Shown piece by piece: positions 39,867 to 59,100 of a stretch of DNA of 64,000 nucleotides. Where the stretch lies: NCBI GenBank assembly GCA_050084515.1, contig CM114271.1:27342001-27406000 (forward strand), read 5' to 3'. Made by a program: the position numbers and the translations under genes. The notes beneath the pieces were generated by a model that had not been told where the DNA came from, did not search any database, and saw only the letters and a list, made by a program, of their open reading frames with translations. How positions within the stretch are numbered: position 1 is the first letter of the stretch; each line of letters starts with the position of its first letter. Origin of the DNA: Blasia pusilla (Eukaryota).

Positions 39867-42800
39867 CTCCCCCTCAAGCTCATATCGATATATCTAACGC
39901 CTAAATCCTTTCTAAACATCTCAAACTTATCTCTAGACAATGCCTTTGTAAAGATGTCAACAATTTGCTGATATGTACCTATATACACAAGATCAATTTT
40001 CCTGAAAGCACTTTCTCTCTGATAAAATGATAGTGCACCTCAACATGCTTTGTACGAGCATGAAACACAAGGTTATTAGCAAGCTTGATGCTACTAATAT
40101 TGTATGCATATATTACACTAGGTCCTAAGTTACTAACACCAATCTCAACAAGTAATCGATGAAGCCACACCGCCTCACATACTGCATTAGTTGCTCCTCT
40201 GTACTCAACCTCTGTTGAAGATAAAACAACTGTAGGTTTTATCTTTGAAGGCCAACTTATAGCTGCGCTTCCCAAAGTAAATGAATAACTAGATGTGGAG
40301 TGTCGATCAGACACGCTTCGTGCCCAATCAGCATCTGTGAATCCCTGTAATTGAAAACTCGGAGAAGGTTCAAATTGAAGCCCGAATTGAATAGAGAATT
40401 TCACATATCGTATAATCCTCCTCACAGCATCAAGGTGAGGTTTTCGAGGTGCTTGCATAAACTGGCTCACGAGGCCAACAACATAGCTCAAATCTGGTCT
40501 AGTTATAGTTAGATAGATCAAACTTCCAACCTTGCGCCTGTACACATTAGAATCTGCAAGCAGCTCTCCTTCATCCACTCTTAGCTTCACGCTCTGATCC
40601 AACAATATAGAGATTGGCTTACAAGCCGTCATATCATATTTTGAAAGCATATGAAGAGCATATTGTCGTTGTAGTAACCACATGCTGTCTCCAACCTTGA
40701 TAAACTCAATACCAAGGAAGTACTTGAGTTCTCCCAAGTCCTTCATATCAAATTCTGCTTGTAACTTAAGCTTGACTTGTTGTACCATTTCTTCAGTATT
40801 CCCAGTAATCAAGAGATTGTCAACATACAACACAATGAGAACTGTATGATCTTGTCCTCTCAACATATATAACGAGGAGTCAGAATCACATACCCTAAAA
40901 CCCAACTCTTGTAGGACGTATGCAATCTTGTTATACCAAGCTCTTGGAGCTTGTTTGAGCCCGTATAGAGCTTTCTTCAATCTACATACGCAAAATGGAA
41001 ACTAGGGATGCTCGTATCTAGGTGGTTGAGTCATATATACCTCCTTGTATAGATCTCCATTCAAGAAGGTATTCTTGACGTCCATGTGATGTAATCTTCA
41101 CTTCTTACTTACTGCAACTTCAACCACCGTTCTCGTAGTCGCCATCTTTGCAACAGGGCTAAATGTTTCCTCATAATCAATACCATATTGTTGTGCATAG
41201 CCCTTAGCCACCAATCTTGCTTTGTATCTATTCATTGTACCATCTTGATCGCGCTTGATTTTGTAAACCCATTTGCAATCAATAGCTTCCTTATCGGAAG
41301 GTATATCAACCAGCTCCCATGTTTGTTGATGTCTTAATGCAGCAAGCTCTTCCTCCATAACTTCAATCCATTCGGCTTTACTCGCAGCTTCTTCAAAACA
41401 ACTCGACTCCTACTCTTGAAGGGTAGTCATCATTTATGCATGATGTGTCGCAAGGAATGTGTAACTCTACTTGATGTATTGTAGAATGTGTAACTCTACT
41501 TGATCTGCGAAGTTGTTGTTAAGAGGTAGATGCCTTTGACACATGACTCGAGCTTTGACTAATGTTAACAGACTGAATATGTACTCTTTCCGTCCATGGA
41601 CTCACAGATTTAACGGATGAATCTAGGACCTCTCCTAATCCTGCACTAGTACTTGGGGAAGTTGAAGATAATGTCTATTGGTTTATAGTCATATTTTCCC
41701 CCTCAACAGAAAAGTTTAGAGGTGGAATAGGCTCAGATGGAGCATATCATGACTTTAGCTCATCAAAGACAACATCACAACTAATAATAAGCTGCCTAGA
41801 GGATGGAATGTAGCACTTATACCCTTAGTTCCATCAGCATAGTCAATGAAGATACATCTTTCAGACTTGGAGTCTAATTTCTGACGTCTCTCAGAAGGAG
41901 CATGAGCATGACAGATACAACCAAATACTTTCAAAAAGGAAAAATCAAGTTTACTTCCTGTGAAGACTTTGAATGGAGTTTTATCATGAACTCCTCTTGT
42001 TGGAGTTCGGTTGATTAAGAAGATTGTACATGCTATAACCTCCGCCCAATACACCTTAGGCATGTTCTTCTCATTCAACATAGCTCGTGTCGCTTTAGCA
42101 ATATGTCGATTTTTCCTCTCAACCACTCCATTTTGTTGTGGAGTGTAACGGCAAGTCACTTAACGTTGGATGCCATTCTGACGTAAATAGTCATGAAAAT
42201 CTATTGAAAGATACTCACCTCCTCGATCACAACGCAATTTCAAAATGCGTTGTCCAGTCTGCTTTTCTACTAGAACTCTGAATGTTTGAAACACTGAGAA
42301 TACCTTTGATTTGGCTTACAAAAATTATACCCATATATACCTAGAGAAGTCATCAATAAATGAAACATAGTACTGACAACCACTAAGGCTATGTTGTGAT
42401 ACTGTCCACACATCACTGTGGATCAACTCCAATATCTTGGATGCTCTTCTACCTTGCTTTGGAAAATGAAATCTAGCTTGTTTTCCAAATTGGCAAGCAA
42501 GGCATACCTCTAACGTAGCAAGACTTGCTAATTTAGGGACTCCTATTACTATATTAGATGATGAAAGACTATGTAATCTTTGAAGATTCCGATATGCAAT
42601 TCTTTTATGCCACACATTTAGATCTGTGACTTGTTGGCCAGTTTGACCATACATTGCTTCTTGAATCTTTGACATAGAAACATCTAATTTGAACATTCTG
42701 CCAGATCTAGTTCCTTTGACTATCGTAGTGTGGTCATCCATTGTTTCAATGAAATAACCATTTGGGTTAAACTTCACTTGATAATCCTGTTCAACTATTT

Positions 42801-44539
42801 GTCCTACAGAGATCAGATTTCTTACAATGGTAGGAACATAGAGAACATTTCCAAGAGCACAAAGATCGTGTGATGCTATTGGAACTTTACGGGTATGCGC
42901 GATATGATGTTGAGTGTCATCTCCTATGAGCACAATTGTAGGATCTTTCACCGGCTCCAAACTACTGAACCATTTTGCTTGTGAGGTCATGTGATTTGAT
43001 GCTTAGGAGTCAATGTACCAATCTGATGGCGAGTCTTTTTTGACCATTGCTCCCATATGATGAGTCATGACCAAGAGATGCTCCGTTTGTGAATGTTGCT
43101 ATTCTTGGTACTGCTCTTGGTGTTGTTGCTCCACATAGTTTTGTTATTGTAAGGCTCATGTTCTCATATCTGCCTTCTTCTTGAAGTAAAACTTTGCATA
43201 GTGACCCTTGATCCCAAAGTAATTGCAAGATCCAAGGACCCTCTGCTGATGACCTCGACCCCAACCGTTTCCACCATCACCACCATGTGATTGTGCCTGG
43301 TATTGGTTCGTAGTTGATTGAGTGCCTCTTCCTCCATATGCTTGATATTCACCACGACCACGTAAGTTTCTGCCACGACCCCTGCCTTTGTTTGATCCAT
43401 AACCTGCAAATAGCGCACTCTCTTGCAGACTAGATGAGCTACCGCTGTCTACTAGGCGCATCTCTTCACTGATCAACATAGGAACTAACTCTTGAAAGGT
43501 TGGATCCTTCTCTCTCACAAAGATAGAGGTCTCAAATGACTTGTAATCCTTTGGAAGGCCTTGAAGAGTGAATAAGATCAGATCATCATCTTCTACTGTC
43601 ACTCCAATGCTATTCAACTGATCAAAAATATGTCTGATACTCAAAATATAATCATTGATGCTCTACGATCATTTCCTCACTTCGTTCAATTGCTGTTTCA
43701 ATTGAAGCTTTCTGACCTTTGTAGATGTCTAGAATAGCTTTTCCAATGCATCCCAGGCCTCCTTCGGAATATCAACATCTTGGATGTGACGTATCATTGG
43801 CGAACTGATCGTTATTGAATTGTAGTGGATTACTTGCCTTGTGTGTTTGTTCCAAGCGCGAGCATTCAAGTCCATTGAGTCACCTTCTGGCTTGGCCTCA
43901 TCACCTATGACAAACTCCCCTAGTTCTTGACCCATGAGAAATTTTTTCATGCAAAACTTCCAGACAATGTTATTTTGCTTATCTAGCTTCTCGCCTGTGA
44001 TTGCTGTTAGGGAATACTCCATGATAAACAATTTCACTCACAAAAAATGTAATTTCACGCTTTCTACTGCTCCAATTGAAGCATAGACCACTCCAACACA
44101 GAAATCGACATGAAATTTTCCAAAATTGATCAACTGTATGAAAGAACTAGTCAAAATTGGCCTGAAGAGAGCAAACTACAGAACTTTTCTTCACTAATTG
44201 CAGTTTCCTACACTGAAATTGTTGTTGCAGGAGCTCAGAGTGTCAGAATCGAGCGATTTTGGGTACGATGGAAAGCTCTTGATAAGCTCTACAAGACGGC
44301 TAGAACTAGCCTTTGGTGGCTTTCTAGTCAAAGCGGACCCTGACGGCTGAATCGACCGGGAAAGCCCTAAAAAATGCCTCCAAAGTTTTATCACCATCAA
44401 AGCTCCACCTGAAATCTGCACCCACTGAGCTCTGAATAAAATTTCCTTCTCCCAAACTAAAATGGTTCCTTCTCTTGCGTGTCTTCTCTCTTCAAACACC
44501 AAGAATTTCAAGTGATGTTCTCCTCCCGCTCTGATATCA

Positions 44540-44841
44540 TGTGGAAAACTGCTAAACAAGCATAACTGGTGGAAAACGACTTTCACACACACACACCACC
44601 ATGGAGAATGAAATTTGCAATGAGAGAATGAGCGGAGGCTGGTCCTCTTCTCAATTATATAGGGTATGTACAAGCACCCCTAATCCTACCCTTAACCATA
44701 GTCTCGAGTTAGTCTAACTGTGATTAACTAACCCTAGTTAAGATAACTGACTAACCAAGATTAAGCTTCCCTACTTCGTGTGAGTGCCAAATATAGCAGT
44801 TCAGGTGTCTCATGAGTTTGACTGTAACTCAATCTTCAATA
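44540..44841 (-). repeat. Copia 5' LTR, contains (CA)6
   Basis: Direct repeat of 39562-39866; adjacent to the PBS. Confidence 0.93.
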
Positions 44842-45300
44842 AGATCTTCTCCATGTCGACAATCTCACGAGGATTGGTGACCCTCAAGTAGCTTATGGAA
44901 TCCTCTTGTCATGTTTTTCTGGTAGACTTGGTTATCTGTGTAGAACCGTGTGGACGTCTTGCCATATTTCTTCCTTGTATAGATCTTTTGATAGAAAGAT
45001 CATGCAGGCGTTTGGGGATCTTCTAGGACCCGACTCATTAGAGTGCCCCGCTAGGGAGTTAGCTCGTAGACAGGATTTTTGGCGGATTGCCTTTGGTGGA
45101 GTAGGTCTCATTGCGACTGAGTTAGTGGCATCTTCAGCTTTTAAGGGAGTTGGGCCACTGTAGCACCCCTCCTTTGCTCCCGATTTTTGGTTAGGGATAG
45201 ACCGCTACTTTTACAGTACGTTTCCCACGTTGAGGATGGTCTTTTCCCACTTCAGTCTTCACTCACAGCTTGTTGAGATTCCCTTCTTGTTGAGGCTAGA
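44842..45300 (+). mobile_element. Non-LTR retrotransposon, CRE-like, segment 2
   Basis: Removing Copia and one TSD restores the frame: ...ALTKD-LLHVDNLTRIGDPQVAYGILLSCFSGRLGYLCRTV...IAFGGVGL. Confidence 0.8.
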
Positions 45301-45884
45301 TGTCGTGCGAATCCACATCGTCATACAACATACATCGCTGACATACCATACGCACATACATACATAACATAGATGAGAGTATCCACAAACGCAAGTGTAC
45401 CACAACTGAAATCCGTGAAAGACCTACTGTTATAAAACACGTTTACAATCACATAAAATCGAGCCAAACCCACTCCACGATGGGAGAATCTAGGTCGAAG
45501 CTTGCGGGAAACGCCATAGCCAAGAGCTCTACTCACTACCAAGGCTAACTCCCAACGCATAGCAGGCTCAACTCAAAGAACGACGTTCTTTGAGGAAAGC
45601 CACCTTATATCCTCCAACCTAAGAGCGGGCCCTACTAGGAAAGTCACCCCCAAGTGAGTAACCCCCAACCCTATGTATGGAACCACATCTCTACCAAGCC
45701 ACTACGGTCCTACATAAGGAATGGCCTCTACCAGCACACCATACTCTACGACATAATCCGTATGGTCATGACAACGGTGTCGTCGTGCGAATCCACATCG
45801 TCATACAACATACATCATTGACATACCATACGCACATACATACATAACATAGACGAGAGTATCCACAAACGCAAGTGTACCACA
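45301..45884 (-). repeat. Gypsy 3' LTR region (LTR probably 45407-45884, plus a second partial copy of its first about 105 bp)
   Basis: 45302-45407 and 45782-45887 are direct repeats (106 bp, 3 mismatches). 45884 to 45407 reads TGTGG...TTTCA on the minus strand. Confidence 0.75.
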
Positions 45885-46059
45885 ACTCGCCCCCCTAACT
45901 GGCGGTTAGGTCCCTCTAACTCCCAGGTAGCCCTATACATCTACTACATGCTATACACCTTCTTGGGTGCCCGAATCAGAAGGCCGGGTGCTAGGTTGCC
46001 CCATCGTTAGTCGCACATCTGTAATCCATATCATGCAAAGATCAAGTCATCTACCTCTC

Positions 46060-46200
46060 CTAAGTACATCGAGGACAAACCCACCTTCCAGTAGGAACAA
46101 CATCCAAACGTGGAGTCAAACACATCATGTGCCAACCCCTAGAACACCGATCACACACCAACATACGGGCTGCGTTACCAGCAGACCCACACAACATGCA
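46060..46200 (-). other. PHD finger domain (C4HC3) at the C-terminus of the Gypsy integrase
   Basis: CMLC-x11-CDRC-x4-H-x2-C-x14-CPRC with the conserved W (GRWVCPRC). All eight ligands are present; stop at 46060. Confidence 0.9.
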
Positions 46201-49200
46201 CCTCAAGCTAGCACGTATCATGGCTAAGCTTGGGTCAACAGTACCATCCACATTTGGAAGATGACATGGCGCACAATTACGCACATGGTCCTTCCAAACA
46301 ACTCCATCACGACCCTCCAACATGAGAACTCCAGAAGCTAACACCTCACGCACTCGTAAAATAGTGCGGCCTGCCGTCACATCCAACGTTGTCGGGAAAT
46401 CTTCTGCAAATAGACATAGTCCCCACATGGAACCTCGAATCGATGGTCGATAACCTCCACCCGAATGGTTGCATACCGCAACGTATCCCTGTGTTGAGCA
46501 ATGGCAAGATTCTCAAAGGTCGTTGGCATAACTCTCCGAAAGAGCTCCGCCCCCGAGAACCCACCCTCATCCACATCTCTGGGTCATCAAGGTTCACCAC
46601 CTCACTAGACTCTGACAATTTTTCTTTGGCAAGTCCGGATCTCGCCGTATAACAGTAAAAAATAAGGTGAGAAGGAAGCCAAGGATGCTTGGCGATCGAA
46701 CCTATACCCCATGGCTAACCATGGCGACTAAATATCCAGTCTCCAAGATGCCCCTTCAGAGGCCATACTTGCGCAATGCCCTCTTCACCGTCTGAACCAC
46801 ACGCTCAGCCAAACCATCCGCCTCTGGATGATCTCGAGGCGTGGTCCGATGATCAATCAACGCCTTGTCACACAAGACACGAAACTCACCACGAAACTCA
46901 GACTGGTCGGTCAAGACGGTGGTGCACCAAAATGACTAAGCACTCTATCCGAAACGCATATGCCGTTCCTCACTTGCCTTGTCCGGTAATGCCACCAACT
47001 CAATCCACTTGGAGAAGTTCTCCACCATCACCAACACATATCGATGATGTCGCATACCAACGGTAACGGTCCCCATAAAGTCCACACTCCAACGGTAACC
47101 CAACCCCATAATAGGCAAGGGGTGTAATTGTGGTGTAGGGGCATTAAATGATGCCCTCACCCGGTCACAAACCATACAACGTGACACCAATCGCTGCACT
47201 GAGTATGCATGCCACGCCACCAATATTGGCCAAGGAGTAAGTTATACGACGCTTTACCCCAAAATGTCCCAACTCCTCATGGGCATGTCGCACAATGCGC
47301 TCTCTCGAGCCAAATGTGGCACTACTCGTACTCTACCATCCTCCCACACGCGGAGAATATGTGTTCCCTCCAATCGATACCTCTTAGCACGTTGAAGAAC
47401 ACGGTCTCGCTCCTTGGCACTCACTATGCCTGGCACCCTACTAGTCAGAGGAACTCCAACACCAACGCATCATCATGAATATCACGCTGATCCGTGCCAC
47501 CATCTCCAACCTTAGGATCTCAAGGTGGCCATCTACCCCTCGACTAGAGTAAGATATCATGTGGTCCTCCATACTAGAGTCCACCTAACCAACATAAAAG
47601 GCGGATGCATGCCAAACTGGCACCATCTCCTCATCAACCTCGCCATGCCATCTAGCCCCAGATTGTATCCTCTTGGCTAGTACATGGGTTCCTACTCAAC
47701 CCATCAAAGCATCAAGGTTGGCAACTCCAGGTCTATGTACCACCCGGAAGTAATACTCTGTAAGATAAGAGCCCACCGTGCAAGCTTCCCCGTAAGCTTG
47801 TCCGACTCCATCAACCACTTGAGCGGTGGTGATCAGTAACAAGGGTAAATGGTGCCAAACAAGTAACACCTAAAGTGTGCCCACACCCACACTCTTGCCA
47901 AGCACTCTCCCTCATATGAACTATAACGCGACTCCGCTGCATTATTCGAACAACTTGCATAGGCCACCACAAACTCCATGTGCTCATCATCATGTTGTGC
48001 CAACACCGCTCCAAGTCCCAACCTACTCCAATCAGTGTGTAATTGAAATGGACGCCCTCTGATAGGTCTCCTCAAGATAGGCGCCGCCACCAACTGGGCC
48101 TTAAGCTCCACAAAAGCTCTCTCCTGATCATCTCCCCATTGCCACTCTTGATCTGATTTCAGAAATTGGTTCAAAGGCTTTGCCATAGCACTAAATCCCT
48201 TCACATACCTCCGATAGTAGTTCGCCAATCCCATGAATGCTTGAACTCTACTCACATCTATCGGACGCGGAATAAGTGCAATAGCCTCCACCTTTGCTTG
48301 CTGAACTCCCAAACCACATGGATAGATCACATGACCCAAGTACTCAACATCCTCATGGAAGAACTTACACTTTCCTGGATGCAAACGTAGACCATGAGCT
48401 TTCAACCGCTCAAACACCATCTGCAAATGTATCTGATGCTCCTCCACCGTGTTATTGAACACCAAGATATCATCAATGTAACACCGAACAAAATCCAACC
48501 CGCTAGGATCTCGTCCATCACTCTTTGAAACTCGGCGGTGCATTCTTCAACCCAAAGGGTAAGAATTTCCACAGTACAAACAATCCTTGCCATGAGAGTT
48601 GACACCCCAAAATCTTTGTCTTGGCCTTGTCACTCTCCCGAATCGGCAATTGATGGTATCTGCCGAAGATCCAAAATCTGAAAATCTTTGCCTGTCCCAC
48701 CACATCAAAGATCTCTCAGGTGTAGGCATGGCATACTTATCGGCCTTGGTTTGCCGATTGATAGACGGTAATCTCCACACATCCGCCTATCCGTGTAGTT
48801 GCCATGCATATCCTTTTAGCGAGCATGACAGTGGGCGATGCATACTCTCCATGCGACAACTCCACTAATCCAGCCTCCAAAAGGTCCAACGTCCTACTCA
48901 ATCAAGTCCTCTCCATATCACTATATCGATAGGGACGACGGAAGATTGGCGTATCACTAGCCAAATCAATTAGTATACCGGGTCCAACCAGAGAACCCAA
49001 CTCCTTCATGCTAAAGGCAAAACAACTCCTATAAGCACGAGGAGGCTGTGTCAGCGTTGTTTCTCACCTCCCGTAAGCTTGGGCCCAAGTCATGGCTCCC
49101 AAGTCTCCTCCTTTGGCATACTAGAGGGAGAGGACGATGCCATTGGCTGCTACGCAACCCCCTCACAAGATGATACACCCTTAGCTACACCATCATCTGA

Positions 49201-49384
49201 GCAAATAACTCCTCCACCAGCAAGAGCAACCAACTCCACATGCCCAGCCATTACATCCCATCTACTCCAAGGATGCAAAATACTACTCTCCTCGCTTCAC
49301 CGATGCCTCTACCGCCCCGGTAGCCATCGAGCTCATTACAAGGGGTGGAAGACCCACGACATAGTCCAAGTCGCTGCTCGGCCA

Positions 49385-50325
49385 TACCAAGACTCAAAAT
49401 CCAAGTCAAACAATTCAGGTCCATGGCCTGACCCAACACATGACGTCGTGAAGCCTCGAAATAGAAGCAACCCATTTGTCACACGAAGAGCAAATCCCAT
49501 CGCACGCTCTCTCTCATCAGCGTTAGGCTCCACCAACTGTCGCACATGAGAATCCATACAAGCCCCGGACCACCTTCCCTGTAGGCATGTGACGAGGGAA
49601 AACTCACAAATGTGGGTAGTGCCATCCTAGGCTGGCCCACACGGTTCACCGATCAATAACCTTCACCACTTGGGAAAGTGGCCCAGTATCCAAGATACTA
49701 TCCACTGTAAGGCGAGGATCCCGCTGCACTGCATCATATGCTCGACGTAGAACCTCCCTAGGCAACAAGTTTGTCCACCACAAGCGTGGACGATGTGCAC
49801 GCAAGCCAAATCGCATTGCATCCAACAACACCGCTGGTCCAATCCAAGAGCGCACCTCATGAACACTCGCCATCATCCGGGTCCGAGTGTCACCCAACAA
49901 TGGAACATTCTCTAGAATCTAAGCTAGAGCACGTGCCTGATGAACCTGGAGATGTCGTAACACCCGTAACATCTCCCAAAACAATCGAGACCTAGGGTCA
50001 TGTAATCCCTCACCACGACCAGCACGTGTATGACCCTGACATGGCCATCCAGCAATCACCAAATCCACAGGACCAATTCTCTCAAGGTCTTGCGCCCCCA
50101 ACAATGCAATGTGTGATGGTAAAGCACGCTGGTACCCACGAATAGCTGATGGCGGCAACAACTCAGGATACCTCCGCATCAACTGACCAATATGTCGGGA
50201 TGAGACTCTCTGGGCCGTCTCATCTCGCTCCACATACACGTATCTCCAAGACAGAATACCGGCTTGCAACATCGCAACCAAACCAAAGTGCTAATCCCAC
50301 CAAAGAGATCTAACACACAAATGCC
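49385..50325 (-). pseudogene. C5 cytosine DNA methyltransferase domain (DNMT3-like) within Gypsy pol
   Basis: Motif I VLDLFGGIST; motif II-like YVYVERD; IV DLVIAGWPCQG; V-like RSRLFWEM; VI ILENVP; VIII AHRPRLWWTNL; IX ERERAMGF; X RRHVLGQAM. Frameshift near 50285, stop at 49919-49921, further lesions near 49645 and 49460. Confidence 0.92.
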
Positions 50326-53300
50326 CTCCGGCGGATATCGCCATACAATGGGTGTAGTATCCAAAGGGATAACCCAATCGGGCAGAAGTAGGAGTCCGTG
50401 GGGCCTCCTCTTCCTCGTGAGGTATAACAGACCTCACACCAAGCCTCTGCACTAGGCGATCGCCTCTGCCGTAGTGCACCGCTTGAACTCCAAAGTGGCA
50501 CATCCAACGATGAGGATGCCACTGCTGCAAAAATAGGGACCTCCTCTTCCTCCTCATGCGCAGGAGAATCCATAGAAGAAACAGTACCCTCCAAAAAGTC
50601 TCCTGGCCAAGTGACTACTCCACTAAAACCAGCCACGATGCTAACTTTGTTGGGAAGACCCTCTGGTCGAGCCCCGTAAATAAATCTCACAGAACTTGGC
50701 TCATACGTCCATCCGGACGCCAACCTGGTCTATAAGACGCTGTCTCGATCCAATAATCCATTTGAAAACCCATCGGGTACAATCGCTCCTCCAACTAGTA
50801 CATCATACGACTCGGCTGATGTGACTACCGCAGATACTCCCAATCGGGAGCTATCAGTCGCATGATCTGGTCTCAACTGTACAGAAAAATTCTCCCGTGT
50901 CATGAATTGAGACCTATCATTGGCTCCTCCAAGTGATGTTTGAATGTGGAATGGGCAAGGCTCAAGCTCTGACCTCCGAATACCCAAACCAATACATGCC
51001 GCCTTTCCCAACATCAAAGGTTGGGCACCAGAGTCTAACAAGACTCTATCTGGTCTATACACATGTCTTGTAGGACTCACCAATCGGAAGATCCCACTCC
51101 GGTTGTCCAACGTACATACACCAGGTGTAAGCCTCTCACGATCAATGGCTGGCCAGCCTGGTAATGCATCCATCTTCGCCGCGCCGCCTGGCAAGTAGCA
51201 CCGGTACTCAATGCTACTCGACATAGAGGGTCGCTCCACCGCAACGCCTCATCCACCTCAACACGTGCAAGAATAACACCCCCACGTTCACACAACGTGG
51301 TCGCTAATCAAATACTGAGAGCTAAGTCAATTCCTAAAGCCATCACTCCGTGGCGAAAACAATGGGAATCCCAACATGAAGTTGCCATCGCAATCTTGCA
51401 TTGATCTTTGCATCCGTGTCTACTACACGCGATGTAGATGCCTCGATCCCCACTGCCGGCTCAATAGGTGCGTGAGGAACCATGGATGGAGTCATAAGCA
51501 CCTCGGACAACAAGAATGATGGGAAGCCTAGCTCGCCTCCCGGCCTCACCCCTCTGTGGGTCCAACTCCACAAAGAGCACCACGTGGCTCGACGCTCGAG
51601 TGGCTCCTCTCAGAATCGCTGCCGGGTGATGCCTCAACCTGTCTTTGCACTCGCCATATAAGAGAGATCATCCCCTCCGTAAGAGGTGGAAGCCCTTGCT
51701 CCCGAACTGATCTATCTTTGGATACCTAGTAGCCAATTCTGCTCCGGCTCAATCCTGGTAGCCATAGCGAGCTCAGTAGTGGTAGGGGTAGCCACCGTGA
51801 GGCTCTCCAACCACTGGTCCACCTCTACCACCCCTACCACCCCTACCACCTCTACCACCTCGGCCTCCGGAGCTACTCCACCACGGCCACGGCCTGATCT
51901 CAACTCGGATGAAGATCAAAGCAACGCTCTCGAGGATGACCTAGTCTCCCAATGATCACACTGAGTTGGGGCCGACGAGGCCCATCCTCCAAAGTCCGTC
52001 TCCCATCCTCTTGGGGACAAAACTTCCTAACATGATCACCTCCACATGTCCAACATGACTGTCCCTTCTTTGTGGGGCAGCAAATGAAGGCAATGGTCTC
52101 TACACAAATGTCCCTCTAGGACTTGTGAGGTCGCATGTACCCCCACGACTCCCCTACTACTACCACCACCACTACTATGAGGGCGTGAGGTGGGCGGCTG
52201 AACACGAGAAGTAGTAGTTGTATCCCTCTTGAATGCGGATGTCACCACTCTCTCCTTCACCATGTTAAGCTCAATCTTCTCAGATAGAGCAAACACATGG
52301 GTCAATGTGGGTGAATCATCACTCATAAGAGTAGCATCACGCACCCTACGGCGCAAATCTCTCCAAGATCCCATACCAAAACTGGATTGCCTGATCCTCG
52401 TCACACCCAGGTAATTGAAATCAAGCGCGTGATACGCGTGTATGCCTCACAAAGACTCTCACCAGTCTTTCGCTCAAAGTCTTGAAGATTCCTCAACTTC
52501 TCCGTCTTCACTCCTTGATAGTTCTTCTTCAACCTCTTGAAGAACTCTGCAACCGGGCTAAACGATGGTGGGGCACTAGTACCTCCACTAGTACCCCCAC
52601 TAGTACCTCCACTGGTACCCCCACTCCGGCTCGCACTACCACCACCGGGCTCGGGTCATTTGGGTGGCATAGTAGGAGCACTACTACCAATACCACCATG
52701 GGTGATAGACACATAGCCTGGAGACCAATATTGTCTCCATGCCTCAATCTCAGCAACATGGTCCTTCCTAAACTCATGGTAATCATCCATGGGTGGTCCT
52801 TCCAAGTGCTGAAACAACCCCTTCCAAGCCAAGAAGGGTGTAAACAACGTGGCGTTCCGCAACATCTGCATATCACACCACGTATCAAACTCCTGCATGA
52901 AGTCCTCCAACTCAATGGTACCCACTGCACCCGAGTATCGTCGTGGGCCCTTCATGGCCCCATATCCACCGTCCATGTCCCAAATCAATGGAGCTGCAAC
53001 ACTCGATAACAACGTAGAAGACTCGGTGTTTGGAACACCCTCGTCCTCCTCTTCATCAACCGTCGGAAGTGGAAAAGGTAGCCGATACCTAAATCCACTC
53101 CGTGTGAAACCACCACCCTAAACCACGGTCCCCAACCAGACCACCCGACAGCTCCGTGATGACCAACGCCGATGCCGCACCACCACCAAATTACCAAGTG
53201 ACGTCGATGTCGCTATACTATTCTAGCTCTACTAGCTATGGGTGTAGGCAACCTAACTTGTCATCACCACAAGAAGTCTCCCACAATCTACTCGTCATCC

Positions 53301-53884
53301 CTCTAGCCTCACTACCGGTAGCACACAGGAGTAACACTACTCGAAATCAGCGTCAACCCTAACAATGGGCGCAAGCAAAAGCACGATGGAGGGATCCAAA
53401 CACAGAAATCCAACGACAACCCTCCAATCGCAAATGGAAATCAAGGTAACACAATCCACCAAACGTGGTGCCCTCTGAATCCACAAAACCCACCACACAA
53501 TTCTAACGCAATAGCTACTCCGCGCTGGTCGATGACGTGCTAGTAACGAGCAAAGACCTGAAAATATCACATGCATGGAGAGGCTACACCGTACTATGCG
53601 CTAGAGGTACATCAACCAAAAACCTGAGATGCATAAAGCGCCTAACACATCTCCAAACATAACCAAATGAGCTACAACAGTCTGTACACTGGCATAGTTA
53701 AGAACTCGGCAGTTAAGAGTCCTCCAGGCAGAATAGCCCCAAGATGGGTGACCAGTTATGCAAAACTAAAATCCCAAATCCTGCAAAAATTGCCTCTCGC
53801 CCAAGCAAGCAAGCTTGCTTGCTTGCTTCTTGCTCCGCCTCTCACGCCCACTCGTCCCGAGCTACCACGAGTTGCCTCGAAGAT

Positions 53885-54240
53885 TGCTACAAGGAGCAGC
53901 GGAGGCAGTCAAGAAGACCTACATTTATAGTGGACTTCATGACGGACATCGATTTATCCCCCTAGCCATTGAGATGTACGGGGCTATGGGGGAGAGGTTT
54001 GACTCGTTCTTTACGGATTGCGCCCATGATCTCTAGTCTAGAAATGGGTTGTCCTTAGCCACTGCGATCCTTTATTGTAGGCAACGGGTCTCCATAGCTT
54101 TGCAGCGTGCCCAGGAAAATGGGCTTTTGCGGTGGGCTCAGGCGGTTGGAGATGCCAATGCTAAAAGCCCTCTTAGTAGTAGTCATAGTTCTCTAGGTGT
54201 TGCTGATATTCTCTCTGCTGTCGATGATTTAAATCGTTAA
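53885..54240 (+). mobile_element. Non-LTR retrotransposon, CRE-like, segment 3 (C-terminal half of the restriction-like endonuclease region)
   Basis: AAEAVKKTYIYSG...RFIPLAIEMYGAMG...YCRQRVSIALQRAQ...; TAA at 54238-54240, followed by a GGGCC/GGCCC hairpin and a T-rich tail. Confidence 0.75.
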
Positions 54241-55379
54241 GGGGCCGGTTTTGGCCCTTTGAGGTCTTTTTTTTTGGCTCTCTTTGCTCCCTCATTTGTA
54301 TCCTGATGGGTTTCCCATCATATTTGGGGTTCCCATCATATTTTCTATTTATTATTACATTTCTTCACGAGGGAGCCCTGTAGCGCGGACCATACCGCAG
54401 TTCGCGCTCATGATCATCAGAATCCCGACTCGAGAAACCCGCACAGGCCATGCACAGAATACGCAAGGAGTAAATATATAAATAAAATAATAAGTAAAAC
54501 GCACACTCTGAGTGCTGTGCTTATGATCGTTCTGTACAGACGGCTCTGCCTTAATCCATGTGAACTGGACGGACGAACGGAGGGATGGATGACATCGATG
54601 CGCTTACACTGGCAATTCCGTGGAATTGCTGCTGAGTCCTTCTGTTCGTCGCCGTTTGAGTCGACAGACAGACAGTAAGTAGGCTGTGACAGCCTACCTG
54701 TTTGACACACACACGGAGCTGATAGATGGCAGAGACGAGACAAATGGAAATATAGGCTCCCAACGTACGCCAGGTTTTAGAGTCTGGCGAGAAGCACGAC
54801 TGAAGAAATGAAGGGAGGGATGGTGGGAGCTAATGTCACCTAATTCCCTTATTTCATGGAAGAGTGCTAGGTCCTGTCTGTCTCCGTGCCGAGACAAGGC
54901 ATCCTCATTGACTCTGTTTGGGTGGTAGGTACCATATCTACAAGCAATCTCCATGCCAGCGTATGGAGTATGCCACATCTATTCTCTACAAGCAAGCGCT
55001 ATGCCAAGATTTGAAGGGGCGTGTTCGACTCTATTCGGGTCATGTCTACTCTGTACAAGCCGTTGTTGTTTGCTGCTGCTGCTACCTAGCTTCTTCTTCC
55101 TCTTCTTCTCCATGGATTTGGCCTATAGATCTTATATCCATGCTCAGATGCCCAAACACATGTCCCATATACTGCAAAACATGTGAGGAAGACCCGAAGC
55201 ACAAACGCCGGAAAGTGTGCTGCAAATGCTCTACATGTGGAGAAACCCTACTTGAGAAATGGGTGAGGGTGGACTGGAAGGTGCCTCACGTCTTAAGAGA
55301 CTCTAAGAAAGCAGAAATGAATGCCGAAAATGTCTGCTGCCACAAACTCTGTAACATCTGGAGCAATCCTATTGCAGAA

Positions 55380-55910
55380 ATGCCCAACGGTCTGGTCTGT
55401 CTGGTCCACATTGTGCAGCGACTGCAGCACCCGAGAGCAGAAACGTCGGAAGGGTACGTCGACGTAGTCCAACAGCTGCAGAAGCCGTAGCGCACAGATG
55501 CCAGAAGGTCTTGTCCACCATCTGCGGAAACCACACAGCAGAATATGGCGAAGGGTTTGCTCCACATCCTCCGACAATGGCAAAAACCATAGAGCCAAAA
55601 ATGCCGACAGGTCTTGTCCAAATTGTCCAACATCTGCAGAAACCCACCCCAGTACAGAAAAGCTGAAGGGCCTTGTCCACCTTGTCCAACATCTGCCAAA
55701 ACCCGAGAACAAAAATGCCGAAAGGGCTTGCTGCTTGGTCGACATCATCCAACATCGTCCACCATCTGCAGAAACCATGGAGTAAAATACCTTATGCTCT
55801 GCTCCACATTCTCTTATGTCTGCAGAAACCCTATGGTCCAGAAAGGTCTGGTCCAACAACTGCCCAAACCTTCGAGCAGGAATGCCGAAAGGGGCCTGCT
55901 CCAAATTCTC
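55380..55910. repeat. Degenerate tandem repeat (TTGTCCAACATCTGCAGAAACC...AATGCCGAAAGGG units)
   Basis: GTCCA(A/C)CA(T/G)CTGC..AA.CC and AATGCCGA recur roughly 8-10 times. Confidence 0.7.
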
Positions 55911-56100
55911 TAAAGTCTTAAGGCAAAAAGCAATAAAGTCGAAGGTGCTGCTTCAAATTCTCCCAACCCCATCGCTGAAATGCCCAAAGTTAAGCTCTCT
56001 TTTCTTGGGAATCCGAGAAAGCTTTGTGAAGCTTTGTCTCCCTTCTCGCTTTGCATTGGAGTGAGGAATTGAGGCTACCCTCAACCTCAAGAGCCACCCA

Positions 56101-59100
56101 TTAGTTTTGAGCGGCTTTGTTTTGGAGCTTGATGAGTGAGAAGTAAGCCCCGCCCTCTCCCTTGGACAGCAACTCATTGTGTGTTCCTTGCTCGAGGATG
56201 CATCCACTTTGAATGACTGCAATTGTATCGCAGTGCTGGATCGTGGAGAGACGATGAGCTACAACAATTGTAGTCCGTCCCACCATGATTCTGTCGAGTG
56301 CATCTTGCACAACCTTCTCCGAGTGGGCATCCAAAGCGCTGGTTGCTTCGTCTAGTAGAAGTATAGCAGGGTTCTTCAAAATCGCTCGGGCAATGGCAAT
56401 TCTCTGCTTCTGCCCTCCGGACAGCTGCACCCCCCTCTCTCCCGTGTTGGTCTGGAACCCATCCTTCAACGAGCTGCAAGCGAGTCATTCAATCCTCCGA
56501 TGGTCAATTGCAGTTGATCGTCAGCAATGCAACGAGCCTCAGAGTGGCCATGGTGACTACGAGAGAGAGACTGACTAACTCTTCCACTCCATTCTTTGAA
56601 CCCTTAAGGTGGCAGAAGCTAATCACCAGAGGAGCTCTGGTGAATCTGAACAAAGAACGATTCAAGCTCAAGAATCCACAGGACTGCAGAAGTGGAAGAT
56701 GTGTTTTGTGGTGCAAAATGAGAGACCTGATGAAGGAGAACGCGTTGGCTGCTTTGGCAGCTTCCACAATCTCGGTCTCGGTGGCGTTGTCCCTGCCATA
56801 TGCAATGTTGTCCCTAATGGTTCCAGAAAACAACGTGGGCTCCTGACCAACCAGAGCTATGTGCGATCTCAGCGTTTGCAGATTCCAGTCTCGAATGTCC
56901 ACATTATCCACCTTTATCTTTCCCTTGAGAGGGTCGTAAAATCTGCCACCCATCACCCAGAGACAGATTCAAAACTACTTAGTAGTTTCATCAGATGAGC
57001 TACACATGTCTATGTTCCGCTCAGCAGAACCAAAATCTGGCTGCCTCAGCTGATGATTTTATGGAAAATGTGCCTTTCGCTGGGTTGTGTCAAATCTTCT
57101 TCTTCATCGATGAAAAGACCTCGATCTCGACAGCGAAAAGGCGAAAATAAAGAAAGAAATAAAGAAAGAAAGAAAAGGCGAAAACAAAGAAGAAAACGAA
57201 AAGAAAGTAGTAATCAGACAATGCTACACAGGTCAGTTGATAAAGCTGGTTCCATCAGCAGCTGATGATGATTTGTGTGAAATACACTTCATCGTCGATG
57301 TCTAGATGCGATGTGGAGGGTAATCACCTCTCGATCAAACCGATGATGGTGGATTTCCCAGAGCCACTCTGGCCAACGAGAGCAACGTTCTTGCCAGCTT
57401 TGACTTTGAGGTCGAAGTCTTTGAAGACGAGGATGTCAGGGCGAGCAGGGTAAGCAAAACTGACATCTTTGAGCTCCACATGACCTTGGACAGAGTCAGG
57501 CTTGTGGCTATTTTCATCGTCAGGTTCGATCTTGGTCTTCCTGTCGAGGATTCCAAAGAGTGTAATGATCGAGTTAGCTCCCTTGGCCAGATCTGATGTC
57601 ATGCTCCCTGCCTCTGCAATCATCCTTCCCGATGCCACCAGGATGAAGAAACACTTGAACAGATTCCCGAAGCTCAGCTCGCCCTTCTTCACGAGCTGGC
57701 CTCCCCACCAGAAGTCCAGAGCCCAAGTACAGTAGGTGCACATGGTGGCCGCCCCCAGGCCGATCCCCGCTATGGTGGCCCTCTTTGCAGCTTCTTTCTC
57801 AGGGGAAGCTTGCATGTTTCGGAACATGGCCATGACCTTTGCCTGGGCAGAGTAGGCAGTGATTGTTCGATGGTGGATCACTGCTTCGCTTGCAACCTGG
57901 TTCACTTCCTCCTGAGCTTCCAGCGTTAGATGGTACATGCTTTTCAGAAGGACCTTCTTGGCGTAGTAGCAAGTGATCACCAGAGGTTGGACGGCGATCA
58001 TCACGATTGCCAGCCTCCAGGAAATGATCAGCCCACCGATGCAGCCCAAAAGAATCGCTGCAGAGGTCTGGATGAGTAGAGAGATCCGGTCTCCCACCAG
58101 AGATCGCACCTGCACACATTCATCCAGCCATTGAGTCATCCAGTCAGTGATTGAAGGAATGAATCAGTCAGTCAGTCATTCTACCTGGTCGATTCGATCC
58201 ACTGTACTTCTTCTAGTGGATTGCACTAGCTCTCGTCTTGTTCTCCCAACCGATTGTACACGTTACGTGATTCTTATTCTTCCCATGGATTTTTCATGTT
58301 TTTCTTTTTCTTCTTCTTTTCCTCATGGATTGTAGTGTGATTCTTCCACGTCCCATACAGTGTATAACCTCTCTGATTCTTCTTCCTCTTCTCACCATGG
58401 AGTGTAATTCTTTTGTGATTCTTCTTCTTCTTCCTCCCATACATGGATTGTACTAGCGCTGTGATTTCTCTGCTTCCCATACAGTGTATAAGCCCTCTAA
58501 TTCTTCTTCTCATTGACTGCAGTGCAGTATCTCTCTGATTCTCCTCCTCCTTCTTCTTCTCCCCATGATTGTACATTTTATGTGTTTCTTCTTCTTCTTC
58601 TTTTTACTAAGGATTGTACTAGCACCTGCGATTCTTCGACTTCTCAAACTGTCCATAACCCCTCTGGTTCCTCTTCTCATAGATTGCACTAGCTCCGTGA
58701 TTCCTCAACTTTCCATACGGTGCATCTGCTCTCTAATTCTTATCCTCCTACTCCTCATAGATTGCACTACCTCTCCCTTTCTTCTCCCCATAGATTATTC
58801 TAGTTTCTTTATTTTACTTTTCCCTTCCGTTCTAGCTGTTCCTCTCCCCATAGATCGTGCAAACTTTTCCACCCTTCTTCATCTTCTCCTCCTCAAAGTT
58901 CTGCTGACTCCACTTCTCCCAACAGATTGCACATCTCTGAATGTTTCACTGCTGTAGACAGGCTCAAGGTTTAACAACGACGATAGCAGATCATTGATCT
59001 CGAGAGATCTGAAATAAGAAGAGGAGCATAATGATGTGGTAGAGAGTACTCACGACAGTAGCCTCAGTGGCGAGGCGTCCACAGATAGCACCGCTTGAAT

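What the first reader, a model, noticed from the sequence alone, without database searches (positions are those of the whole stretch)
49385..50325. Gypsy retrotransposon encoding its own DNMT3-like cytosine methyltransferase (PR-DNMT-RT-RH-INT-PHD)
Seen: an intronless C5-MTase domain lies between protease and RT on the same strand, with motifs in canonical order: VLDLFGGIST, GPVDLVIAGWPCQG (catalytic Cys intact), ILENVP, AHRPRLWWTNL, ERERAMGF, RRHVLGQAM. These parallel DNMT3 (VLSLFDGIAT, GPFDLVIGGSPC, FENV, AHRARYFWGNL, EMERVFGF, RLLGRSW) and are not permuted as in DRM. Established (from memory): DNMT-bearing retrotransposons have been reported in Symbiodinium dinoflagellates and in Gypsy elements of the charophyte Klebsormidium. 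I know of no well-characterised land-plant example, nor one paired with a PHD finger. Inference: the enzyme is packaged with pol and methylates the new cDNA or the insertion site, giving a self-contained writer-plus-reader system. This copy is disrupted by stops and frameshifts.
Basis: partly seen in the sequence, partly recalled or inferred. Interest (0 to 1): 0.93.

Follow-up and report, generated by a model that had tools for sequence, protein, structure and literature searches.

The report
Dead Gypsy retrotransposon carrying DNMT3-like methyltransferase
This is a decayed copy of a jumping gene, in what looks like a liverwort genome, that carries its own DNA-methylating enzyme; such elements were described in print only from an alga, so they also occur in land plants.

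Summary
All six C5-methyltransferase motifs lie on the minus strand in canonical order (I 50316-50287 to X 49448-49422), between a protease and a reverse transcriptase. They are spread over three reading frames and interrupted by a premature TAG.

The domain is a family feature, not a one-off insertion. The order gag-PR-MTase-RT-RH-INT-PHD recurs with the same spacing in every one of 38 related metagenome loci long enough to show it. It also appears in 14 Marchantia polymorpha and one Sphagnum fallax gene models. Sequence and predicted fold match only DNMT3A/B/C among solved structures.

- A conserved in-frame stop (window TAG 49152-49150, followed by CAG CCA) separates gag-PR-MTase from RT-RH-INT-PHD, so there is no single pol ORF.
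- The termini are split-direct-repeat-like, not canonical LTRs.

The MTase shows purifying selection on the deep branch (dN/dS 0.22) but none among the moss-like copies. The flanking host gene is liverwort-like. Sister copies are high-copy and transcribed in sense.

The kind is known (streptophyte Gypsy-DNMT3, Klebsormidium, 2018). Land-plant members were not found described in the papers I searched. Enzymatic function and the writer-plus-reader idea remain untested.

The parts
52656..53164 (-). gag N-terminal region; detectable homology to family copies begins at 53164
   Evidence: tblastn to 14 loci at 62-77% and to M. polymorpha models at about 79%; the nucleotide alignment starts at 53164
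52017..52055 (-). Cys/His knuckle-like motif in gag (C-x2-C-x3-H-x4-C)
   Evidence: UniRef names the M. polymorpha relative P0164 a CCHC-type domain protein; no Pfam hit in the window itself
50730..51248 (-). aspartic protease region (DSG at 51041-51018)
   Evidence: 61-83% to PR pieces of the loci; Asp_protease_2 Pfam hit in relative P0034; no Pfam hit for the window piece itself
49422..50433 (-). DNMT3-like C5 cytosine methyltransferase domain, motifs I to X, broken by at least three frame changes and a premature TAG at 49916-49918
   Evidence: Pfam PF00145; motif coordinates; frame changes; PDB matches are DNMT3A/B/C only
49150..49152 (-). family-conserved in-frame stop codon (TAG, followed by CAG CCA) ending the gag-PR-MTase ORF
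   Evidence: sequence, position; the same site is TAG or TAA in 22 locus rows, 303 nt in frame after motif X, with the RT leader in the same frame in 20 of 20 rows
47833..48955 (-). reverse transcriptase (N-terminal motif 48955-48920, YIDD 48480-48460) and RNase H-like domain (about 48138-47854)
   Evidence: RVT_1 5.2e-14, RT_RNaseH_2 1.8e-27, RT_RNaseH 1.5e-17
46945..47241 (-). integrase core (rve), weak match
   Evidence: PF00665 E 1.4e-4, 22.5 bits, below the curated cut-off of 32.6; 0.0015 in the frame scan; clear rve and Integrase_H2C2 hits in relatives
46066..46200 (-). PHD finger (C4HC3, all eight ligands present) at the C-terminal end of ORF2
   Evidence: PF00628 E 4.8e-11; nearest solved PHDs are CHD4, KMT2C/D, ATXR5, DPF2/3, KDM5A/B, PHF21A
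45890..45896 (-). purine run AGGGGGG directly upstream of repeat Y1 (polypurine-tract-like)
   Evidence: the same run sits before Y1 in L020 and L006
45302..45887 (-). 3' terminal repeats in split-direct-repeat layout: Y1 45887-45782, X2 45781-45408, Y2 45407-45302
   Evidence: Y1 and Y2 are 97% identical; colinear with Y-X-Y of L020 and L006

Best explanation
The stretch is the decayed methyltransferase domain of a dead copy of a bryophyte Ty3/Gypsy-type retrotransposon of the 'Gypsy-DNMT3' kind. It lies on the minus strand from about 53164 to 45302. Shown here. The family encodes gag, protease and a non-permuted DNMT3-like C5-MTase in a first ORF. That ORF ends at a conserved stop codon in the same frame as a second ORF (RT, RNase H, integrase, PHD finger). 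The termini are X ... Y-X-Y rather than two equal LTRs. Relatives occur in Marchantia polymorpha and Sphagnum fallax. The window's host gene is liverwort-like. Sister copies are many and are transcribed in sense. Inferred for live family members (my odds about 0.35). ORF2 is made by stop-codon readthrough, so the MTase is produced with Gag-PR in excess over RT and integrase. It is then built into the particle, released by the protease, and methylates the element's own new cDNA before or at integration. The PHD on the integrase steers integration by reading a histone H3 tail state, as chromodomains do in chromoviruses. The window copy itself can do none of this.
For: Anatomy of the window copy. 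The domain is a family feature: the same order and spacing are seen in every related locus long enough to show it (L004, L006, L009, L010, L020, L021, L022, L025, L027, L035). The window is colinear at 76-77% nucleotide identity over about 7.4 kb with L020 and L006. DNMT3 likeness: 29 of 29 PDB sequence matches at E<=0.01 are DNMT3A/3B/3C. A model of the close relative P0166 (MTase blocks at pLDDT 80-96) has DNMT3A/B/C as every listed Foldseek match, with E down to 7.9e-17 and target-normalised TM 0.40-0.81 (0.70-0.81 against isolated methyltransferase-domain chains). Selection: for the window against 29 copies, MTase dN/dS is 0.22 (dS 0.84) versus 0.63 and 1.21 in the two shifted frames. This is comparable to PR (0.25) and weaker than RT (0.12) and gag (0.15). 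Open-looking copies: M. polymorpha model P0164 (1278 aa, 18 member sequences in its 90% cluster) keeps all six motifs and is colinear with gag-PR-MTase. Conserved stop. The window context TAG CAG CCA fits the UAG CAR YYA readthrough motif (passage read in PMC3542737). Termini; the A1-B1-A2-B2 definition comes from a passage read in PMC4157794; the Fig. 4c legend of PMC5890265 says the KnitGypsy-Dnmt3 repeats are DIRS-like. Copy number and RNA: in DNA run X1 the summed word depth is 10^4-10^5 over the element against 4-10 over the neighbouring gene. In stranded RNA run X24, reads cover the element with the same polarity as the minus-strand ABCB gene (for example 121.8 versus 3.5). Host: the best named matches of the flanking ABCB piece are Marchantia paleacea 79%, Calypogeia fissa 73% and Riccia sorocarpa 72%. 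Tree: the window groups with the M. polymorpha, S. fallax and moss-like sequences at SH-aLRT 100.
Against: No complete intact element was seen. All 38 metagenome loci are broken over the MTase, with the longest overlapping ORF at 56-467 aa. The one open MTase ORF (L020) has PWQ where PCQ is expected. For M. polymorpha I saw protein models only, no DNA, and nothing on whether ORF2 is intact. Among the 30 moss-like copies the MTase shows no purifying-selection signal (0.65 versus 0.44 and 0.61 in shifted frames), nor do PR and PHD, whereas RT (0.34 versus 0.59/0.94) and gag (0.41 versus 0.55/0.84) do. The window-versus-copies comparisons all share one branch and are therefore not independent. 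Readthrough is not shown. The loci have CAA CCC after the stop, which matches five of the six motif positions. The RNA reads are mostly 95-99% alike and carry other letters at all listed variable sites, so they come from sister copies of unknown integrity. No Gypsy-DNMT3 MTase has shown activity; the Klebsormidium domain gave none in yeast, reported as inconclusive. CpG observed/expected in the element (0.69) equals the window background. Kinship with the Klebsormidium elements could not be tested by sequence.
Confidence: 0.85

Rival explanations
1. Self-limiting or host-serving mark. The MTase methylates new copies so that they are silenced at once, which keeps copy number tolerable. This is the same enzyme chemistry with the opposite pay-off.
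For: The Discussion of PMC5890265 raises this possibility (section read). All 38 moss-like copies and the window copy are dead.
Against: The family is high-copy and its RNA is present in the window's organism. Decay of old copies is expected for any transposon. Nothing here tests the effect of the mark.
Confidence: 0.15
2. RNA-directed enzyme. The domain methylates the element's genomic RNA or its primer rather than DNA.
For: It sits on the Gag-PR side of the conserved stop, next to an RNA-packaging protein. The Klebsormidium domain gave no DNA methylation in yeast, and PMC5890265 raises RNA methylation for another TE-borne DNMT.
Against: Among solved structures, sequence and predicted fold match only the DNA enzymes DNMT3A/B/C, across about 330 aligned columns. 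No match to DNMT2-type chains appeared at E<=0.01.
Confidence: 0.1
3. Coupled writer-plus-reader. The PHD reads a histone mark and directs or activates the MTase at the insertion site.
For: MTase and PHD co-occur in two different layouts: PR-MT...INT-PHD here, and RT-RH-MT-INT-PHD in 16 complete plus 6 partial rows, giving 22 of 43 with PHD. The nearest solved PHDs include readers I recall as binding unmethylated H3K4, the state that animal DNMT3 ADD domains read (for the list; the binding specificities are recalled, not tested).
Against: The two domains lie at opposite ends of the coding region and on either side of a conserved stop, so only the rare readthrough product would hold both, and the protease would be expected to separate them. 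The PHD sits where chromoviruses carry an integrase-linked chromodomain, which points to integration targeting. The PHD shows the weakest constraint (0.44).
Confidence: 0.1
4. Chance juxtaposition or one-off capture: a host DNMT3 pseudogene that happens to lie inside or beside a Gypsy element.
For: Only one copy lies in the window, and it is full of frame breaks.
Against: The same order and spacing recur in 10 loci that span the whole coding region and in parts of all 38. The domain lies colinear with gag and PR in M. polymorpha protein models. Of 43 long relatives, 41 carry retroelement domains. No PWWP, ADD or other host DNMT3 companion domain was found.
Confidence: 0.02
5. Neutral passenger: the domain is carried along but has had no function anywhere in the family.
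For: There is no selection signal among the moss-like copies, and no activity has been shown for any Gypsy-DNMT3.
Against: dN/dS is 0.22 on the deep branch, with shifted-frame controls at 0.63 and 1.21. All six motifs are kept in M. polymorpha models P0164, P0168 and P0172 and in P0166. The domain is retained across liverwort-like, Marchantia and Sphagnum-like lineages.
Confidence: 0.03

Closest known systems
KnitGypsy-Dnmt3 of Klebsormidium nitens ('streptophyte Gypsy-DNMT3'; de Mendoza et al. 2018, PMC5890265; sections 9-11 and the Fig. 4 legend read)
   Same: An intronless, non-permuted DNMT3-type MTase inside the coding region of a Gypsy-type element. The repeats are described there as DIRS-like, and here they are split-direct-repeat-like. 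Evidence of purifying selection on the MTase is reported there (Ka/Ks < 0.2) and found here on the deep branch (0.22).
   Different: The host here is liverwort-like, with relatives in Marchantia and Sphagnum, whereas the paper frames the acquisition as in the K. nitens lineage. Here the MTase lies upstream of a conserved stop, together with gag-PR; the paper's text says 'Pol polyprotein ORF'. The word PHD occurs 0 times in that paper's text. I could see neither its figures nor its supplements. No K. nitens sequence was available for comparison.
SymbioDIRS-Dnmt3 of Symbiodinium (same paper)
   Same: A retrotransposon-borne DNMT3-like domain, and terminal repeats of the DIRS kind.
   Different: Those elements use a tyrosine recombinase. 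This family has a DDE (rve) integrase and the Gypsy domain order. De novo CG methylation was shown in yeast for those enzymes but for no Gypsy-DNMT3.
Metagenomic RT-RH-MTase-INT-PHD elements (unnamed; 34 of 43 long relatives)
   Same: A related MTase (30-45% identity), a Gypsy-type pol and a C-terminal PHD after the integrase.
   Different: In those elements the MTase sits between RNase H and integrase. Their MTases form a separate group of 37 rows (SH-aLRT 97). Their hosts are unknown.
Chromoviruses (Ty3/Gypsy elements with an integrase-linked chromodomain)
   Same: A chromatin-reader domain at the C-terminal end of the integrase, which suggests integration targeting.
Animal DNMT3A/3B/3C catalytic domains
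   Same: They are the only solved structures matched, by sequence and, in every listed row, by predicted fold. The motif order is the same.
   Different: Identity is about 20-23%. No PWWP or ADD companion domains are present. The domain is embedded in a retroelement polyprotein.
Leaky-stop expression of pol (gammaretrovirus gag-UAG-pol, recalled; tobamovirus UAG CAR YYA motif, PMC3542737)
   Same: A single zero-frame stop between an upstream structural ORF and the downstream RT ORF. The window context is TAG CAG CCA.
   Different: Here protease and MTase lie upstream of the stop. Readthrough is inferred and not shown, and the loci have CAA CCC after the stop.

Membership tests
Ty3/Gypsy-type LTR retrotransposons | pol domain order PR - RT - RNase H - INT (integrase after RT) | tested here: met
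   Window coordinates descend on the minus strand: PR 51248-50730, RT/RH 48955-47833, rve 47241-46945. The same order is seen in the loci.
Ty3/Gypsy-type LTR retrotransposons | RT-linked RNase H of the Ty3/Gypsy kind, and a DDE integrase | tested here: met
   PF17919 at 1.8e-27 and PF17917 at 1.5e-17. The rve match is weak in the window (22.5 bits, below the cut-off) but clear, together with Integrase_H2C2, in relatives.
Ty3/Gypsy-type LTR retrotransposons | two equal long terminal repeats flanking the element | tested here: inconclusive
   No LTR pair is present in the window. The family layout is X ... Y-X-Y (L006, L020, L022 and the window 3' end) or X ... Y (7 loci). Y never precedes the 5' X, in 14 distinct 5' ends. 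The 3' Y-X unit follows a purine run, starts TG and ends CA, like an LTR.
Streptophyte Gypsy-DNMT3 (KnitGypsy-Dnmt3) | non-permuted DNMT3-type MTase within the coding region of a Gypsy-type element, without introns | tested here: met
   ORF1 length in L020 (gag to stop, 3984 nt) matches the 1278-aa M. polymorpha model plus its 47-residue offset.
Streptophyte Gypsy-DNMT3 (KnitGypsy-Dnmt3) | DIRS-like repeat structure (legend of Fig. 4c, PMC5890265) | tested here: met
   The split-direct-repeat-like X ... Y-X-Y layout. The figure itself was not seen.
Streptophyte Gypsy-DNMT3 (KnitGypsy-Dnmt3) | sequence kinship of the MTase and RT with the K. nitens elements | not testable with these tools
   No K. 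nitens protein was named among the hits. No eukaryote genome collection is on hand, and supplements are closed.
DNMT3 family | motif order I-IV-VI-VIII-IX-X with the catalytic Pro-Cys | tested here: met
   GWPCQG is present in the window, although the domain is frame-broken.
DNMT3 family | closest to DNMT3 rather than to other C5-MTases | tested here: met
   29 of 29 PDB sequence matches are DNMT3, and so is every listed Foldseek row. A tree with named DNMT1, DRM, DNMT5 and bacterial enzymes was not made.
DNMT3 family | host-type companion domains (PWWP or ADD in animals, a DUF in land plants per PMC12344493) | tested here: not met
   No such Pfam family was found in the window frames or in P0164, P0166, P0169 and P0171. 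It is therefore a DNMT3-like catalytic domain, not a host DNMT3 orthologue.
DRM (domains rearranged methyltransferases) | circularly permuted motif order | tested here: not met
   The order is canonical.
DIRS / PAT / Ngaro tyrosine-recombinase retrotransposons | tyrosine recombinase | tested here: not met
   The three-frame Pfam scan of 44600-54400 gives rve and no recombinase. Only the repeat layout resembles this group.
Chromoviruses | chromodomain at the integrase C-terminus | tested here: not met
   A PHD (PF00628) occupies that place and there is no chromodomain hit.

The most novel reading that the evidence does not exclude
Gypsy-DNMT3 elements may not be a Klebsormidium oddity. They may be an old lineage of land-plant (bryophyte) retroelements that is still transcribed, with a hybrid life style. 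In this reading they combine a DDE integrase carrying a PHD reader with DIRS-like split direct repeats, and the DNMT3-like enzyme sits on the Gag-PR side of a programmed UAG readthrough site. The enzyme would then be made in excess, packed into the particle, and would pre-methylate the new cDNA so that each insertion enters chromatin already marked. If that is so, Marchantia polymorpha, which holds open-looking copies, becomes a genetic system for asking what transposon-borne DNA methyltransferases are for.
Probability: 0.25. Interest if true: 0.8.

Novelty: new member of a known kind. Interest (0 to 1): 0.58.

Why it matters
Cytosine methylation is the main way plants silence transposons, so a transposon that carries its own de novo methyltransferase is a paradox. 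What such enzymes do is unresolved, and the one Gypsy-borne enzyme tested so far gave an inconclusive result.

This finding places the kind in land plants: a liverwort-like genome, Marchantia polymorpha and Sphagnum. It also shows that the family is high-copy and transcribed in one of these hosts. Three testable features are added:
- a conserved leaky-stop-like site that puts the enzyme with Gag-PR;
- split-direct-repeat termini combined with a DDE integrase;
- a PHD finger on the integrase.

Marchantia is genetically tractable, so the open question becomes approachable there. The window copy itself is only a fossil.

Tried and rejected
- Whole-genome search: no genome is held for this window.
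- LTR search: the repeat finder and two self-BLAST runs found no terminal pair in the window. A local alignment of the 3' X repeat against 53165-55200 scored 22, equal to the shuffle mean of 21.9. The window copy therefore has no detectable 5' repeat.
- The first attempt at search for related loci, with an 8-sequence alignment, failed for lack of a conserved stretch. A 5-sequence alignment worked.
- CpG and CWG observed/expected do not set the element apart from the rest of the window, so they say nothing on past methylation.
- The look-up of sequencing runs listed no RNA holder. Air-metagenome rows had small shares that I did not lay. Organisms were coded.
- The ESM Atlas gave only what is probably the protein's own Streptophyta cluster plus generic methylase clusters.
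- Klebsormidium was not among the named hits of two protein searches. The word index may have missed it.
- Paper searches found no text on a DNMT-bearing Gypsy element in Marchantia, Sphagnum or bryophytes. Figures and supplements were not visible and may hold such data.
- dN/dS among the moss-like copies gave no signal for the MTase. This is reported in full as evidence against.
- A host DNMT3 pseudogene and a bacterial dcm-like origin were both considered and rejected.
Full report
1. What is in the window.
On the minus strand, between about 53164 and 45302, lies one retroelement copy. A stop-masked Pfam scan of all three minus-strand frames of 44600-54400 gives, in order, DNA_methylase (E 1e-08), RVT_1 (1.3e-12), RT_RNaseH_2 and RT_RNaseH (7.4e-26, 1.5e-21), rve (0.0015, weak) and PHD (2.8e-09). 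It gives nothing else: no tyrosine recombinase and no chromodomain (single ORFs).

They lie in three different frames, and a TAG interrupts the core at 49916-49918. Upstream are a protease region (DSG at 51041-51018), a Cys/His knuckle-like motif (52055-52017) and a gag-like region. Downstream are RT (YIDD at 48480-48460), RNase H, an integrase core and a PHD finger with all eight zinc ligands (46200-46066). Only one copy is present in the window.

2. It is a family feature, not a one-off.
The 214-residue core (stop read as X) finds 2720 proteins at E<=1e-3 among 1.84 billion representatives. A scan of metagenome contigs returned 38 loci whose MTase is 57-76% identical to the window's. Local tblastn of the window's pieces shows the same order, gag-PR-MTase-RT-RH-INT-PHD, with the same spacing in every locus long enough to show it: L004, L006, L009, L010, L020, L021, L022, L025, L027 and L035. 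L011 and L037/L038 carry an internal deletion from the MTase to the PHD.

The window copy aligns colinearly at 76-77% nucleotide identity over about 7.4 kb with L020 and L006. Eight loci are near-identical duplicates of others and were dropped from the counts that follow: L003, L008, L013, L017, L027, L028, L032 and L038. All 38 loci are broken over the MTase, with the longest overlapping ORF at 56-467 aa. The one open MTase ORF (L020:9524-10924, P0162) has PWQ in place of PCQ.

3. Named relatives and the host.
A search for longer proteins with P0162 returned 27 proteins at E<=1e-10. Of these, 14 are Marchantia polymorpha gene models (53-65% identity, 949-1333 aa), one is from Sphagnum fallax (62%), and 12 are unnamed. 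The window's pieces match the Marchantia models at about 79% (gag), 46-74% (PR), 56-74% (MTase core) and 78-80% (RT/RH).

Model P0164 (1278 aa; 18 member sequences in its 90% cluster) is colinear with gag-PR-MTase and keeps all six motifs. So do P0168, P0172 and the unnamed P0166. The flanking host gene is an ABCB transporter on the minus strand whose introns 56474-56726 and 56943-57327 are confirmed by RNA joints. Its best named matches are liverworts: Marchantia paleacea 79%, Calypogeia fissa 73% and Riccia sorocarpa 72%. Sphagnum reaches 59-60% and most listed seed plants 51-58%. The window's host is therefore a liverwort-like land plant, and I did not try to name it further.

In a tree of 66 MTase domains, the window groups with the Marchantia, Sphagnum and moss-like sequences (SH-aLRT 100). 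The L020 ORF pairs with the Sphagnum fallax model (95). The window is separate from both that pair and the Marchantia group.

4. DNMT3 likeness.
With P0162 as query, all 29 PDB sequences matched at E<=0.01 are DNMT3A, 3B or 3C (best 4e-08). An AlphaFold model of P0166 built on a 20-row alignment has mean pLDDT 63, but 80-96 over most of the MTase. Every listed Foldseek match in the PDB is a DNMT3A/B/C entry. E-values reach 7.9e-17, with about 320-370 aligned columns and TM normalised by target of 0.40-0.81 (0.70-0.81 against isolated methyltransferase-domain chains).

No PWWP, ADD or other host companion domain is present. I did not make a tree with named DNMT1, DRM, DNMT5 or bacterial enzymes, so placement inside the DNMT3 clade rests on these nearest-match results.

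5. A conserved stop between the MTase and RT.
Five relatives (P0163, P0164, P0166, P0170, P0172) end 72-77 residues after the last MTase piece. In the loci the same position holds a stop in 22 locus rows (17 distinct copies): TAG in 15 and TAA in 7, followed by CAA CCC in most. It lies exactly 303 nt, in frame, after motif X in 15 rows and 302 nt in one. The sequence leading into RT follows in the same frame in 20 of 20 locus rows. My pattern did not apply in L007/L008 and L024, where the local frame is shifted. L035 is rearranged there, and L005, L011 and L012 lack or truncate the region.

The window has the site as well: TAG at 49152-49150, followed by CAG CCA. That fits the UAG CAR YYA motif which stimulates readthrough in tobamoviruses and other plant viruses (passage read in PMC3542737). 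The coding layout is therefore ORF1 gag-PR-MTase, one zero-frame stop, then ORF2 RT-RH-INT-PHD. Readthrough itself is an inference; splicing or reinitiation is not excluded.

In the tree, the bryophyte group sits with eight unnamed gag-PR-MTase-only proteins (SH-aLRT 92). Single-ORF PR-MTase-RT-RH-INT proteins such as P0034 lie in another group.

6. Termini.
The window has no LTR pair. In the family, a repeat X of about 337 nt lies roughly 1 kb upstream of gag. After the PHD comes a purine run, then Y (115 nt), X, Y. This full Y-X-Y layout is seen in L006, L020, L022 and the window (Y1 45887-45782, X2 45781-45408, Y2 45407-45302; Y1 and Y2 are 97% alike). Seven loci have Y alone at the 3' end (L009, L010, L011, L021, L025, L027, L037), which Y-Y recombination could explain. 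Y never precedes the 5' X in 14 distinct 5' ends.

This is the A1 ... B1-A2-B2 layout called split direct repeats in PAT and Ngaro elements (passage read in PMC4157794). It agrees with the legend of Fig. 4c in PMC5890265, which says the KnitGypsy-Dnmt3 repeats are like those of a DIRS element while the domains are those of Gypsy. The window copy has no detectable 5' X, and its homology to relatives stops at 53164.

7. Selection.
The two shifted frames of the same alignments served as the neutral control.

Window against the other copies (dS about 0.4-1.0):
- MTase 0.22, versus 0.63 and 1.21 in shifted frames (29 copies).
- PR 0.25, versus 1.03 and 1.11.
- RT/RH 0.12, versus 1.25 and 1.65.
- gag 0.15, versus 1.14 and 1.77.
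- PHD 0.44, versus 0.80 and 0.91.
These pairs all share the window branch and are not independent.

Among the 30 moss-like copies (median nucleotide identity 0.85):
- MTase 0.65, versus 0.44 and 0.61: no signal.
- PR 0.60, versus 0.43 and 0.54: no signal.
- PHD 0.80, versus 0.52 and 0.68: no signal.
- RT/RH 0.34, versus 0.59 and 0.94: signal.
- gag 0.41, versus 0.55 and 0.84: signal.
The MTase was therefore conserved as a protein while the lineages diverged. Within the moss-like set, its divergence looks like decay after insertion, or like weaker constraint than on RT and gag.

8. Copy number and RNA.
Reads and contigs of four coded runs were laid on 44000-58500. In DNA run X1, summed word depth is 10^4-10^5 across the element and 4-10 across the ABCB gene, with 156,941 short contigs laid. 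This points to many near-identical sister copies, although the figure is not a copy number. In stranded RNA run X24, first mates lie on the + strand both for the minus-strand ABCB gene (for example 30.5 versus 0.98) and for the element (5-122 versus 0-7 between 45452 and 53679). The RNA is therefore sense to the element.

Of the 2722 reads laid, 1955 are 95-99% alike, and at the listed variable sites all or most carry the other letter. The RNA thus comes from sister copies, not necessarily from this one. Many molecules begin at 45612, inside X2, which would fit a transcript end there; I did not follow this up.

9. Wider relatives.
Of the 150 best representatives, 43 have 1000 or more residues. 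Of those 43, 41 carry retroelement domains next to the MTase. In 34 the MTase lies between RNase H and integrase, and 22 of these have a C-terminal PHD. In 7 it lies between PR and RT, as here (Pfam confirmation for five). The MTases of the first layout form one group of 37 rows (SH-aLRT 97). The pairing of MTase and PHD is therefore common in unnamed environmental sequence and not peculiar to this element.

10. What is known.
De Mendoza et al. 2018 (PMC5890265; abstract, sections 9-11 and legends read) described DNMT3 domains in Symbiodinium DIRS and LINE elements and in a Gypsy element of Klebsormidium nitens. They framed the latter as an acquisition in the K. nitens lineage. Their text holds no 'Marchantia', 'Sphagnum', 'Physcomitrella' or 'PHD'. 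The KnitGypsy-Dnmt3 domain gave no methylation in yeast, which the authors called inconclusive.

A 2025 paper (PMC12344493, passages read) and a 2026 preprint (10.64898/2026.05.21.726589, passages read) refer to DNMT3 in retrotransposons of 'streptophytes', citing the 2018 work. PMC6673714 (passage read) notes that many retrotransposons encode PHD fingers. Searches for Marchantia with DNMT3 and Gypsy, for five Marchantia gene identifiers, and for bryophyte retrotransposons with a DNA methyltransferase domain found no description of land-plant members. Figures and supplements were not visible and may bear on this point.

11. Verdict.
The element is a dead member of a known kind, and that kind is now placed in land plants. 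The added detail is the conserved stop that puts the MTase with Gag-PR, the split-direct-repeat-like ends, and the PHD on the integrase.

My preferred mechanism for live members is as follows. The MTase is made in excess with Gag-PR, packed into the particle, and methylates the element's own cDNA. The PHD guides integration. This is inference from the anatomy and from the discussion in the 2018 paper, at about 0.35. The last fits the anatomy poorly, because the two domains lie on opposite sides of the stop.

Noticed in passing
window 39559-44841 (minus strand): A Copia-type element lies directly 3' of the Gypsy-DNMT3 copy. It has an RVT_2 ORF at 39979-41001, Pol_BBD and gag_pre-integrs at 42325-43002, and a gag-like ORF at 43729-44037. 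Its flanking direct repeats 39559-39866 and 44536-44841 are 90% identical and are probably its LTRs.
   Followed up: partly
window 11020-12426 (+): A 468-aa open frame carries a Helitron_like_N domain (E 1.7e-49), so the neighbourhood is rich in transposons.
   Followed up: no
window 54520-59782 (minus strand) and 60672-60878: The host ABCB transporter gene has RNA-confirmed introns at 56474-56726 and 56943-57327, and its last exon or 3' UTR reaches about 54520. The stretch 56237-56443 resembles 60672-60878 at 74%, which could be the gene's two nucleotide-binding halves or a tandem paralogue.
   Followed up: partly
window 20001-24000: This stretch has unusually high G+C (0.56) and a strong AT skew (-0.31). 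Overlapping open frames on both strands (for example 20759-21805) have no Pfam match.
   Followed up: no
proteins P0016, P0048, P0055, P0079 and others (unnamed metagenome sequences): There is a large unnamed group of Gypsy-type polyproteins with the MTase between RNase H and integrase and a C-terminal PHD (34 of 43 long relatives). Many have ECQ instead of PCQ at the catalytic motif.
   Followed up: partly
window element versus loci L001-L038: The liverwort-like window copy and the Sphagnum-like copies share 71-84% of residues across most of the RT/RH piece (a few partial matches run lower). The window's ABCB piece reaches only 59-60% against its best Sphagnum match. This could reflect strong constraint, paralogy of the host gene, or transfer between bryophytes.
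   Followed up: no
window 45356-45934 and 45612: RNA reads and one contig join 45356 to 45934, skipping 577 nt across the Y-X-Y repeats. Many RNA molecules also begin at 45612, inside X2. These may be a deletion variant in sister copies and a transcript end.
   Followed up: no
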